A stretch of DNA of 9,388 nucleotides from a virus (lineage: Duplodnaviria > Heunggongvirae > Uroviricota > Caudoviricetes). The notes under the pieces were generated by a model. That model searched no databases and had not been told where the DNA came from. It worked only from the letters and a program-made list of their open reading frames with translations. The DNA is taken from the IMG/VR virus record IMGVR_UViG_3300029497_000144; one strand, 5' to 3'. Both the position numbers and the translations under genes were made by a program. Each line of letters begins with the position of its first letter. Position 1 is the stretch's first letter. Below are positions 7,933-8,941 of this stretch, piece after piece.

Positions 7933-8115
7933 TCATTCAGTATCACGGCGCACCTCCACGAACTCCTTAACGAATCTCTCCAAAGGCTGAACACATGGCG
8001 ACTGATAGCCCTCGCGGTAAAAGGTCACGCGGTTATGCTCGACGCGCTGTACGGTCACTACAGCCCCGTGCGAATCCTTGTAACGGCTTCCCGGCATCGG
8101 ATTATGGTTACGCAT
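7933..8115 (-). CDS. Small hypothetical protein (60 aa)
   Basis: ORF MRNHNPMPGSRYKDSHGAVVTVQRVEHNRVTFYREGYQSPC...; its start overlaps the 3' end of the AntA-like gene by 8 nt (coupled arrangement). Family not recognised with confidence. Confidence 0.5.
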   Translation of the reverse strand: MRNHNPMPGSRYKDSHGAVVTVQRVEHNRVTFYREGYQSPCVQPLERFVKEFVEVRRDTE

Positions 8116-8941
8116 GGTTTACCCCCATACGCTTCGCCAGCCAGCGCTGTGAAAGGCGCATTAACTCGTCTTTGCGCTTCTGGTAGTCCTGCCCCAGCTC
8201 AATTAGCGTGATATTGGTGCTTTCCAGATAGGCGAGGTGTTCAAGCTGTGCTGCGTTCATGCTGTCCCGTGGTTCGCCAGTAATGCCATTTGCCTGCGCC
8301 CACTGCTTTGCCGTCATGCCACCCAGCACGATACGGGCGATCATGTTGCTCTCGTTGCTGTAGTGGCGCTGCTGTGTCTGTTTGCCCTGTTCTGCGCGGG
8401 CGCTTTCAAGTGCTGCGCACATCGGCTTAAACAGGTTGGCGGCACTGATACGGGCTTTTAGCTGGCGGCGATACTGAGCGGCAATCTCTGGCACGCTGCG
8501 CTGTAGTGCTTCCTCACACTGAATGAAGTAACGTCGAACGGCGCGGCCCTGTTCGGTGCGTTCGATCATTGCCAGTTCTTTCGCCATTCCGACACTTAAC
8601 AGATAGTCTTTGCCGGGTCTGCCAGAGTGCTTAATCTTGCTGTAAGCCGCGCCATTCGGGCTTTTCCCCAAATTTGGGGAAATAGTTTTATGGACTGAGT
8701 AATCGTGCCCAATGGTGAAGTCATATTCAGAGATGCGATCAGTGATCCATGTAGAGAAGTCTTTTCCCACGCCCAACGCTTTGTGTAACGCTTTTGCGCT
8801 AACAATATTGGTTTCACGCCCACCGATATGACCAGGAATAACCGGGACAATTGCGGCAAATTCATTACCGTTAATTGTGCCCTGATAGGCGTTCAGATGA
8901 GGGGCGGCCTCAGAAATTAATCTGCTTTTTTCGATGTTCAT
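8108..8941 (-). CDS. Phage antirepressor-like protein, AntA/AntB N-terminal domain (277 aa)
   Basis: Region NIVSAKALHKALGVGKDFSTWITDRISEYDF...GRPGKDYLLSVGMAKELAMIERTEQGRAVRRYFIQCEE matches the recalled AntA/AntB antirepressor signature (KDFS.WI ... AKELAM ... RRYFI.CE). GGAG SD 5 nt upstream of the ATG. Confidence 0.7.
   Translation of the reverse strand: MNIEKSRLISEAAPHLNAYQGTINGNEFAAIVPVIPGHIGGRETNIVSAKALHKALGVGKDFSTWITDRISEYDFTIGHDYSVHKTISPNLGKSPNGAAYSKIKHSGRPGKDYLLSVGMAKELAMIERTEQGRAVRRYFIQCEEALQRSVPEIAAQYRRQLKARISAANLFKPMCAALESARAEQGKQTQQRHYSNESNMIARIVLGGMTAKQWAQANGITGEPRDSMNAAQLEHLAYLESTNITLIELGQDYQKRKDELMRLSQRWLAKRMGVNHA

What the first reader, a model, noticed from the sequence alone, without database searches (positions are those of the whole stretch)
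8108..8941. AntA/AntB-type antirepressor module reading into the RNA-controlled leader
An antirepressor-family gene with a coupled 60-aa gene sits directly upstream of the leader, with no terminator until 7651-7628. In P1 (from memory) a C4 RNA controls icd/ant translation; here an ant-like gene and an Icd-like gene are both present but placed on either side of the RNA and replication module. The antirepressor may target a helper-prophage repressor.
Basis: partly seen in the sequence, partly recalled or inferred. Interest (0 to 1): 0.5.

Follow-up and report, generated by a model that had tools for sequence, protein, structure and literature searches.

The report
AntA-family gene in a phage satellite
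This is an ordinary, already-annotated "antirepressor-family" gene of a phage-satellite island, lying in the helper-induced operon just upstream of the island's RNA immunity switch; its predicted fold is that of a DNA-binding protein (like Deinococcus DdrC), and nothing shows that it inactivates a helper repressor.

Summary
Window 8108-8941 (-) encodes a 277-aa protein with a Pfam AntA domain (E 3.6e-21). A 60-aa DUF4222 gene overlaps its stop by 8 nt. The only terminator-like site on that strand is 7651-7635.

The element is a P4-like/PICI satellite inserted between yicC and dinD. The gene order is int, alpA, hyp144, AntA, DUF4222, then an Ash/Eta-type long ORF that contains isrK, the terminator and C4 RNA, then Icd-like and primase. 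This order recurs in about 800 E. coli genomes, in Salmonella and other Enterobacterales, and in the experimentally mobilised PICI EcCIMP1 (AntA 86% identical).

The layout is P4's vis-eta/CI arrangement with three extra cistrons, and it matches the published "Bro zone" of Gram-negative PICIs. The antirepressor reading is unsupported:
- None of 34 full-length relatives has a KilAC domain.
- The protein shows no similarity to the N15 antirepressor.
- The gene lies upstream of the RNA, not under its control.
- EcCIMP1 did not change helper CI expression or titres.
- A natural in-frame deletion removes AntA and DUF4222.

The parts
8954..9388 (-). hyp144: 144-aa conserved gene of unknown function, the cistron just upstream of AntA. 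In relatives its ATG overlaps the alpA stop (TGATG).
   Evidence: No Pfam, PHROG or NCBIfam hit. dN/dS 0.11-0.30. The window ends exactly at its ATG; alpA and int lie outside the window.
8108..8941 (-). AntA-type gene (277 aa), preceded by GGAG 7 nt before the ATG and lying 12 nt after the hyp144 stop.
8555..8803 (-). AntA/AntB domain (residues 47-129): beta-hairpin plus winged helix, with a disordered insert at residues 87-106.
8126..8554 (-). C-terminal helical domain (residues ~130-272): one long helix plus a helical bundle, DdrC-CTD-like, with no Pfam family. Conserved motif: GKxT..HYSNEaxMIN.IVLG....RD.L..QL..L.yLE..N..LI..G..Y..RK.
   Evidence: Alignment A1. No Pfam hit in 34/34 members. 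phrog_2657 'transcriptional regulator' covers residues 102-265. hhalign to the DdrC C-terminal profile: 91%, E 1.1e-6, residues 157-247. PADLOC candidate PDC-S22 at residues 186-266, E 1.5e-9.
7933..8115 (-). DUF4222 gene (60 aa), with an 8-nt overlap with the AntA stop.
   Evidence: PF13973 E 1.1e-22. Present after AntA in the E. coli and Salmonella islands, but replaced by a Bro-N gene in Pantoea L007.
7101..7946 (-). Ash/Eta-type long ORF (281 codons). It starts at GTG 7946, preceded by GGAGGT, and overlaps the DUF4222 end by 14 nt. It runs in frame through isrK, the terminator, C4 and the Icd-like ORF.
   Evidence: Phage_ASH PF10554 E 4.3e-24 at residues 77-177, which is nt ~7718-7416. This frame is open in 8 of 8 related loci from two diverged lineages. 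P4 has the same arrangement at 8168-8812. An N run lies at 7837-7846.
7713..7721 (-). Putative constitutive leader promoter: extended -10, TGtTATAGT. It aligns with the TATAGT upstream of the P4 leader, where I place PLE from memory.
   Evidence: Alignment A2: TATAGT, TATGGT or TAGAGT is conserved just before the isrK start in the window, L001, L009, Salmonella, 83972, N15 and P4. This is an inference; the consensus scan did not call it.
7630..7706 (-). isrK / seqA-like leader RNA with an intrinsic terminator (stem 7651-7635, T tract to ~7628).
   Evidence: RF01394 at 60.3 bits (cut-off 50). c4-a1b1 reaches only 25.2 bits (cut-off 46.7). Terminator.
7494..7581 (-). C4/CI-type antisense immunity RNA.
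   Evidence: RF01695 at 81.1 bits, E 3.6e-15. Its loop UCCUUUGUGU is complementary to ACACAAAGGA at 7459-7450, over the Icd-like ribosome-binding site; 6 of 1000 shuffles reach this length.
7101..7439 (-). Icd-like ORF (112 aa), nested in frame in the Ash ORF and occupying the position of P4 kil.
   Evidence: NF033153 E 6.5e-10, residues 11-47. Only the first ~36 codons are Icd-like. The remainder matches a gene that lies ~770 nt further downstream in L001, L009 and L012.

Best explanation
The 277-aa gene is a 'Bro-network' protein of a phage satellite (a P4-like / Gram-negative PICI island between yicC and dinD). It has an N-terminal AntA winged-helix domain and a C-terminal DdrC-like helical bundle.

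Shown: it is one cistron in a tightly packed chain. The order is alpA (outside the window), then hyp144, AntA, DUF4222 and an Ash/Eta-type long ORF, with junctions of -1, +12, -8 and -14 nt. The last ORF runs in frame across the island's RNA immunity switch: the isrK/seqA-like site, the terminator, C4 RNA, and the Icd-like gene whose ribosome-binding site C4 can pair with. The AntA gene lies upstream of the leader's own promoter position.

Inferred from P4 and EcCICFT073/EcCIMP1: the chain is transcribed only from the alpA-proximal promoter, which a helper phage switches on. Ribosomes handed from cistron to cistron into the Ash ORF let this long transcript pass the C4-dependent terminator and reach the Icd-like and primase genes.

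Inferred from fold: the protein itself is a dimeric DNA-binding regulator made after induction, acting on helper or satellite DNA. It is not a protein that binds a helper repressor. The AntA-DUF4222 pair is an exchangeable, dispensable cassette placed between alpA and eta.
For: Domains.

Synteny int-alpA-hyp143/144-AntA-DUF4222-Ash/Icd-primase is seen in:
- E. coli SEV1 at the same yicC/dinD site;
- Salmonella at the yicC site;
- E. coli CUWW10, 83972 and ECamp52 at tRNA-Thr/proA;
- EcCIMP1 (AntA 86% identical).

Of 28 loci from other species that encode full-length relatives, 15 carry C4 (13 also isrK) downstream on the same strand, and 12 carry the int-alpA RNA motif upstream. About 807 of 5426 E. 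coli genomes carry the gene.

The long ORF is open through the leader in 8 of 8 loci and scores as Phage_ASH exactly over the RNA region. P4 has the same isrK + c4-a1b1 + C4 triple inside a 214-codon ORF that overlaps vis.

Published P4 logic: eta is coupled to the alpA homologue, and its translation prevents termination (PMC10111431). alpA is helper-induced and required for the PICI cycle (PMC6092414; PMC11773190).

The natural deletion in strain ZF34 removes 918 bp (AntA codon 31 to the DUF4222 end) between 12-bp repeats. It fuses the AntA start in frame to the Ash ORF. The protein is therefore dispensable while translation into the leader is kept.

Against: No transcript data exist. Co-transcription from the alpA promoter, the internal promoter and the read-through are all inferred by homology.

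The in-frame deletion is a single natural variant, and an in-frame outcome has a 1-in-3 chance.

In DdrC the winged helix is acidic and was proposed to bind a partner protein rather than DNA. The fold therefore does not exclude a protein-binding (antirepressor-like) role.

The DdrC match rests on a predicted model and a shallow 4-sequence DdrC profile.

Thirteen of the 28 loci with relatives have no C4 leader, including the Edwardsiella loci (one of several AntA copies in those genomes; a homologue also sits in Edwardsiella phage EPP-1). The protein's function therefore cannot depend on the leader.
Confidence: 0.55

Rival explanations
1. It is a true antirepressor. The protein binds and inactivates the immunity repressor of a helper prophage, functionally like P4 epsilon, P22 Ant or P1 Ant, and so wakes the helper for the satellite's benefit.
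For: The family name and PHROG annotation say so. AntA domains occur at the N-terminus of proteins whose relatives do antagonise repression, such as the Stx phage Phi24B Ant, which has a P22-Ant C-terminus (PMC3064807). Satellites are known to derepress helpers: P4 epsilon is annotated 'helper derepression protein'. The acidic winged helix of DdrC was proposed to be a protein-binding surface.
Against: There is no KilAC, P22_AR or Bro-N domain, and no similarity to N15 gp30. In the proteins tested (AriS, Phi24B Ant), the anti-SOS or anti-repressor activity is attributed to, or sits with, the other domain. The gene lies in the alpA operon, which in EcCICFT073 is turned on only after the helper has already been induced. 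EcCIMP1, with an 86% identical gene, changed neither helper Kapi1 CI-lux nor titres. A natural deletion of the gene exists.
Confidence: 0.2
2. It is a helper-interference or superinfection-exclusion factor. After induction or infection the protein binds incoming or replicating phage DNA and limits phage development.
For: The C-terminal domain hits the PADLOC candidate defence family PDC-S22 (E 1.5e-9). EcCIMP1 adds to superinfection immunity against Kapi1 through an unidentified gene, with no known defence system found. The Vibrio PLE Bro-network protein CapR represses a helper gene (cited in PMC10111431). DdrC-like DNA binding is compatible with this.
Against: PDC-S22 is an unvalidated candidate, and the only paper found merely lists it. 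The match covers just 81 residues. No experiment links the EcCIMP1 phenotype to this gene. This rival overlaps with the best explanation, since both involve DNA binding after induction.
Confidence: 0.15
3. It is a DdrC-like DNA-lesion or DNA-end binding protein. It would bind nicks or ends of satellite or helper DNA, helping circularisation or protection of the injected or excised genome, rather than regulating transcription.
For: The full-length fold and profile match DdrC. DdrC senses breaks and circularises and compacts DNA (PMC11347143, PMC9303277).
Against: Identity to DdrC is only 16-19%, so function may not carry over. Other members of the AntA/Bro network behave as gene regulators. The gene is dispensable in a natural variant.
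Confidence: 0.1

Closest known systems
Phage satellite P4 left operon (late promoter -> vis -> eta/kil with CI RNA -> epsilon -> alpha primase)
   Same: Both have the same Rfam triple (isrK, c4-a1b1, C4) inside a long ORF that overlaps the preceding cistron. Both have an alpA/vis-family gene upstream, a nested short ORF after the RNA, and a primase downstream. Both have a conserved TATAGT before the leader.
   Different: In P4 eta follows vis directly. Here three cistrons (hyp144, AntA, DUF4222) lie between them. P4's helper derepressor epsilon lies downstream of the RNA and is unrelated. No sid, delta or psu homologue was found among the window ORFs scanned.
Gram-negative PICIs, in particular EcCIMP1 of E. 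coli MP1 (PMC11773190), and the 'Bro zone' described by Mageeney et al. 2023 (PMC10111431)
   Same: They share the gene order int-alpA-hyp-AntA-DUF4222-ash-Icd-primase-PerC. AntA is 86% identical. The Bro zone is described as holding AntA, Bro-N and ANT proteins together with C4/isrK immunity RNAs. Enterobacter PICIs are listed with AntA/AntB + Icd + PerC.
   Different: The integration site differs: yicC/dinD here, tRNA-Thr/proA for EcCIMP1. The primase type also differs (D5/DUF5906 versus DUF927). The AntA gene has not been tested in any of these elements.
P1/P7 immI and N15 immA operons (C4/CA RNA - icd - ant)
   Same: The leader has the same architecture. N15 carries isrK at 62 bits, c4-a1b1 at 42 bits and C4 at 79 bits, followed by an Ash fragment and a small gene. 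In the window an Icd-like gene follows C4 directly, and C4 is complementary to its ribosome-binding site.
   Different: In those phages the antirepressor is downstream of the RNA and icd, and is the regulated product. N15 gp30 is a Bro-N protein unrelated to this one. Here the AntA gene is upstream, and the genes downstream of the RNA are for replication.
Listeria phage AriS (AntA/AntB + ANT/KilAC), PMC9043618
   Same: It has the same N-terminal Pfam domain. That domain alone alters expression of the phage's own lytic genes after induction.
   Different: AriS has a KilAC C-terminal domain that inhibits the SOS response. The protein here has a different, DdrC-like C-terminal domain.
Deinococcus radiodurans DdrC (PDB 7qvb, 7udi, 8u0g)
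   Different: Identity is only 16-19%. DdrC is a chromosomal, radiation-induced DNA-repair and nucleoid protein, described as having no homologues outside Deinococcus. The protein here is encoded by a mobile satellite.

Membership tests
Pfam AntA/AntB (PF08346) | Domain match above the curated gathering score | tested here: met
   76 bits against a cut-off of 27, E 3.6e-21, full model 1-68. 34 of 34 full-length relatives also match.
ANT/KilAC antirepressors (P1 Ant1/2 type, AriS type) | C-terminal KilAC/ANT domain (PF03374) | tested here: not met
   No hit at E<=0.01 in the protein or in any of 34 relatives.
Functional phage antirepressors | Sequence relationship to a domain shown to bind a repressor (P22 Ant, N15 immA antirepressor, P4 epsilon) | tested here: not met
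   No P22_AR_N/C or Bro-N hit. BLASTP against N15 gp30 gives E 0.035 over 40 residues. P4 epsilon is a 95-aa protein at a different position; it was not compared directly.
Functional phage antirepressors | Binds and inactivates a phage immunity repressor | not testable with these tools
   Indirect evidence only: EcCIMP1 did not alter Kapi1 CI-lux or titres (PMC11773190).
P1 immI / N15 immA type operon | C4-family antisense RNA with an upstream target/terminator element | tested here: met
   C4 at 81 bits and isrK at 60 bits, both above their cut-offs. The c4-a1b1 model reaches only 25 bits against a cut-off of 46.7, because the first hairpin is degraded.
P1 immI / N15 immA type operon | icd-like gene directly after the RNA, with its ribosome-binding site complementary to C4 | tested here: met
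   NF033153 E 6.5e-10. A 10-nt complementarity lies over the Shine-Dalgarno sequence; 6 of 1000 shuffles reach it.
P1 immI / N15 immA type operon | Antirepressor gene downstream of icd and under RNA control | tested here: not met
   The AntA gene is upstream of the leader. Downstream are small ORFs and the primase.
P4-like satellites (core set int, alpA/vis, alpha primase, epsilon, sid, delta, psu) | alpA/vis followed by an eta/ash ORF enclosing the CI RNA, then a primase | tested here: met
   alpA and int are seen in syntenic relatives only, because the window stops at the hyp144 ATG.
P4-like satellites (core set int, alpA/vis, alpha primase, epsilon, sid, delta, psu) | Capsid-size and late-control genes sid, delta and psu | tested here: not met
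   No such Pfam or PHROG hit among the window ORFs scanned. The region between the primase and dinD holds SSB, PerC and small ORFs.
Gram-negative PICI (int, alpA, Bro zone, pri-rep, accessory/late zone) | Four-zone order and a size of about 10-15 kb at a specific attachment site | tested here: met
   matched to the description in PMC10111431.
Gram-negative PICI (int, alpA, Bro zone, pri-rep, accessory/late zone) | Induction and mobilisation by a helper phage | not testable with these tools
   Shown for the relative EcCIMP1 with phage Kapi1, not for this element.
DdrC-like fold | N-terminal beta-hairpin/winged helix plus C-terminal helical bundle, matching over both domains | tested here: met
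   [not shown]

The most novel reading that the evidence does not exclude
The two-domain AntA-type proteins of enterobacterial satellites and prophages are the missing relatives of Deinococcus DdrC. On this reading DdrC is a domesticated mobile-element protein. The satellite protein would then act not on a repressor but directly on DNA, as a dimer bridging two duplexes or recognising nicks or ends. For example, it might act on helper or satellite genomes during induction, or underlie the unexplained superinfection immunity of EcCIMP1.
Probability: 0.2. Interest if true: 0.6.

Novelty: new member of a known kind. Interest (0 to 1): 0.3.

Why it matters
As stated, the finding adds little. The gene is already annotated as 'antA/AntB antirepressor family protein' in hundreds of RefSeq genomes. 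Its position, in the Bro zone between alpA and the replication genes and next to C4/isrK RNAs, has been described for Gram-negative PICIs.

Two points are useful.

1. The label 'antirepressor' should not be read as a function here. The evidence points to a DNA-binding protein made from the helper-induced alpA transcript, in a chain of coupled cistrons. By analogy with P4, that chain carries ribosomes across the RNA immunity terminator. This gives a concrete, testable model for how such islands override their own immunity.

2. The full-length match to DdrC connects a protein thought to be unique to Deinococcus with a very large phage and satellite family. That could guide work on both.

Tried and rejected
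- AF2 on the single sequence gave pLDDT 37 and was discarded. The model used was built with alignment A1.
- A PDB sequence search with the single protein gave only a spurious TerS hit at E 0.33.
- N15 gp30 was tested as the possible namesake antirepressor. It is a Bro-N protein with no real similarity.
- The consensus promoter scan found nothing in 6900-9388. In L001 it found only one weak site inside hyp144. The leader promoter is therefore inferred from alignment with P4 and N15.
- The search for related loci with the alignment failed because no stretch was conserved enough. The single protein was used instead.
- The afdb50 fold library was unavailable.
- Literature searches found nothing linking DdrC to AntA or phage.
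- The only mention of PDC-S22 found was a genome survey with no functional data.
- The ATGA-coupled 48-aa ORF (7790-7936) was considered as the cistron after DUF4222. It was rejected in favour of the GTG-7946 Ash frame, which has a GGAGGT ribosome-binding site, a Pfam hit and a conserved open frame.
- I considered that Phage_ASH might be only a translation artefact of the conserved RNA. This cannot be excluded for the Pfam score. However, the frame stays open for 259-356 codons in two diverged lineages.

Full report
OBSERVATION. On the minus strand, 8108-8941 is a 277-codon ORF. It is preceded by GGAG and starts 12 nt after the stop of a 144-codon ORF (8954-9388). It carries a complete Pfam AntA/AntB domain at residues 47-129 (E 3.6e-21, 76 bits, cut-off 27). 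It also matches PHROG 'anti-repressor Ant' families (6e-37). The next ORF (7933-8115, 60 aa) is DUF4222 (E 1e-22), and its ATG overlaps the AntA stop by 8 nt. On that strand the only terminator-like site between 9388 and 6900 is 7651-7635 plus its T tract. The gene is under purifying selection, with dN/dS 0.15-0.24 against six homologues. It has 1831 database homologues. The suggested KilA-C domain is absent from this protein and from all 34 full-length relatives down to about 30% identity.

WHAT THE ELEMENT IS. The window starts in yicG and dinD. All other genes are on the minus strand: the AntA block, a leader, an Icd-like ORF, small ORFs, a D5/Toprim primase (832 aa), SSB and PerC. In E. 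coli SEV1 the same island continues past the window end with an AlpA-type HTH gene, a hypothetical gene and an integrase next to yicC. Salmonella has it at the same site. Closely related modules sit behind a different integrase at tRNA-Thr/proA in E. coli CUWW10, 83972 and ECamp52. The same module is in EcCIMP1 of E. coli MP1, a PICI shown to be mobilised by phage Kapi1, whose AntA protein is 86% identical. About 807 of 5426 complete E. coli genomes carry the gene. Of 28 loci from other species encoding full-length relatives, 15 have C4 RNA (13 also isrK) downstream on the same strand, and 12 have the int-alpA RNA motif upstream. The remainder include the Edwardsiella loci, which have no C4 leader (a homologue also sits in Edwardsiella phage EPP-1), and satellites with another leader such as Pantoea, where a Bro-N gene follows AntA. 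This is the four-zone layout (Integration, Bro, Replication, Late/accessory) published for Gram-negative PICIs. That paper names AntA among the Bro-zone domains and notes C4/isrK hits there (PMC10111431). An Enterobacter survey lists PICIs with AntA/AntB + Icd + PerC.

THE LEADER AND HOW THE MODULE READS INTO IT. Rfam finds isrK (7630-7706, 60 bits), the terminator, and C4 RNA (7494-7581, 81 bits). The C4 loop is complementary over 10 nt to the Shine-Dalgarno region of the Icd-like ORF (7459-7450; 6 of 1000 shuffles reach this length). That ORF (7101-7439) matches NF033153. So the Icd-like gene follows the RNA directly, as in P1 and N15.

One reading frame is open from GTG 7946 to the Icd stop at 7101. 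The GTG is preceded by GGAGGT and overlaps the DUF4222 end by 14 nt. This 281-codon ORF scores as Pfam Phage_ASH exactly over the nucleotides that encode isrK, the terminator and C4. The same frame is open for 259-356 codons in all eight related loci examined, which belong to two diverged lineages. P4 shows the same picture: isrK, c4-a1b1 and C4 lie inside a 214-codon ORF that overlaps vis. [quoted passage not shown] It is also established that its translation lets transcripts from the upstream late promoter escape CI-dependent termination, whereas transcripts from the internal constitutive promoter terminate and yield CI (summarised in PMC10111431).

An alignment of seven leaders shows a conserved TATAGT-like hexamer just before the isrK start, including in P4 and N15. 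In the window it has an extended -10 (TGtTATAGT, 7721-7713). The AntA gene lies upstream of this position. It therefore cannot be served by that promoter and must be transcribed from the alpA side. In EcCICFT073 alpA expression rises only when a helper phage is induced. In both EcCICFT073 and EcCIMP1 alpA is required for the island's cycle. The chain alpA/hyp144 (1-nt overlap), hyp144/AntA (12-nt gap), AntA/DUF4222 (8-nt overlap) and DUF4222/Ash (14-nt overlap) is therefore best read as P4's vis-eta arrangement with three cistrons inserted. Transcription and read-through are inferred, not shown.

A NATURAL EXPERIMENT. Strain ZF34 carries an island with the same integrase, hypothetical and AlpA proteins as CUWW10. 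It lacks 918 bp, lost between 12-bp direct repeats, running from AntA codon 31 to the end of DUF4222. The deletion is in frame, so the AntA start codon now heads the Ash ORF directly. The protein pair is thus dispensable for keeping the island, while translation into the leader is preserved. This is a single case, and an in-frame outcome has a one-in-three chance.

WHAT THE PROTEIN IS. Only the N-terminal ~120 residues resemble other 'antirepressors' in phages. Edwardsiella phage EPP-1 was the only phage record matching over at least 80% of the protein. The C-terminal half is a separate conserved domain with no Pfam family. It is covered by a PHROG labelled 'transcriptional regulator' and hits the unvalidated PADLOC candidate PDC-S22.

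DdrC is a dimeric DNA-binding protein that recognises breaks and compacts DNA. Both structural papers state that it has no known homologues. In the one AntA/AntB protein dissected experimentally, Listeria AriS, the AntA/AntB domain alters the phage's own lytic gene expression after induction. The anti-SOS activity belongs to the KilAC domain, which the protein here lacks. In Phi24B Ant, the similarity to the proven P22 antirepressor lies in the C-terminal domain.

THE ANTIREPRESSOR IDEA. Arguments for it:
- the family name;
- the precedent of P4 epsilon;
- the possibility that an acidic winged helix binds a protein.

Arguments against it:
- none of the domains tied to repressor binding is present;
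- there is no similarity to the N15 immA antirepressor, which is a Bro-N protein;
- the gene is expressed from an operon that the helper must first switch on;
- EcCIMP1 had no effect on helper CI reporter activity or titres;
- a natural deletion of the gene exists.

I give it about 0.2. I give about 0.55 to a DNA-binding regulator made after induction. The remainder goes to a defence/interference role, suggested by the PDC-S22 hit and by EcCIMP1's unexplained superinfection immunity, and to a DdrC-like role on DNA ends.

COMPARISON AND NOVELTY. The module works like P4's late-promoter/vis/eta read-through unit and belongs to the PICI Bro zone. It is not a P1/N15 immI-type 'RNA - icd - ant' operon, because the ant-like gene is on the wrong side of the RNA and is a different protein. 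It fails the P4-like core test for sid, delta and psu and fits the PICI description. The gene, its neighbours and the zone are already annotated or described, so this is a new member of a known kind. The one point I could not find in the literature is the full-length relationship between this AntA-type architecture and DdrC.

LIMITS. alpA, int and the upstream promoter lie outside the window and are known only from syntenic relatives. Two 10-nt N runs (7837-7846, 6982-6991) fall inside the Ash ORF and a downstream ORF. The open frame is confirmed in unmasked relatives. All expression statements are inferences.

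Noticed in passing
[not shown]
   Followed up: partly
window 7686-7706 (-): The first hairpin of the isrK/a1b1 element is degraded: GTTGCTGCAAAATCTGGCGCC here against GTTGCTGCAAAATCAGCAACC in CUWW10. The c4-a1b1 model scores 25 bits here but 54-56 bits in L001, L009 and L012, while C4 itself is 100% identical to CUWW10. This may be an immunity-target variant or decay.
   Followed up: partly
window 7101-7439 (-): Only the first ~36 codons of the 'Icd-like' ORF are Icd-like. The remainder corresponds to the 3' part of a gene that lies ~770 nt further downstream in L001, L009 and L012. The window island has therefore lost about three small ORFs through a deletion that fused two genes.
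   Followed up: partly
L012 (E. coli ZF34) 5744-6514 (-); equivalent to window ~7938-8852: A 918-bp deletion between 12-bp direct repeats removes AntA codon 31 onward and all of DUF4222. It fuses the AntA start in frame to the Ash/Eta-type ORF.
   Followed up: yes
window 7416-7718 (-); N15 L008 4083-4373; P4 L014 8168-8812: The Pfam 'protein' family Phage_ASH aligns to the translation of the isrK-terminator-C4 RNA region. Part of its conservation may reflect the RNA genes rather than a protein, although the frame is open in every locus checked.
   Followed up: partly
window 8108-8941 versus 8954-9388: The cassette is mosaic. AntA has dS of about 0.38 to the Salmonella/83972 lineage, while the adjacent hyp144 has dS of about 1.3. 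Many E. coli genomes match the AntA gene at ~88% nucleotide identity with no matching flanks.
   Followed up: partly
window 8630-8682; L015 2501-2553: A 53-bp piece of the AntA gene, containing the palindrome TTTCCCCAAATTTGGGGAAA in the disordered insert of the domain, matches at 94-96% next to an AntA pseudogene remnant in the lambdoid prophage examined (L015). Six other E. coli genomes, several of them STEC, show the same 53-bp match in unannotated DNA.
   Followed up: partly
L001 13200-13265, L007 6208-6276 and 12 further loci (outside the window): The Rfam int-alpA RNA motif (RF02996) lies just after the integrase gene in these islands, about 1.7 kb upstream of AntA. Its role is unknown.
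   Followed up: no
L001 12261-12289 (outside the window, upstream of alpA): A perfect 12-bp-stem inverted repeat (TCGCAGCGAAAA...TTTTCGCTGCGA) lies between the hypothetical gene and alpA. It could be an operator or a terminator at the start of the alpA operon.
   Followed up: no
window 2895-3176 (-) and 3179-3649 (-): A PerC-family regulator (E 1.8e-29) and an SSB gene lie in the accessory/replication part of the island. The EcCIMP1 PerC homologue was reported to repress LEE rather than activate it.
   Followed up: no
window 7837-7846 and 6982-6991: Two 10-nt runs of N (masked bases) fall inside the Ash-type ORF and a small downstream ORF. If the masking preserves length, the reading frames are unaffected.
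   Followed up: partly
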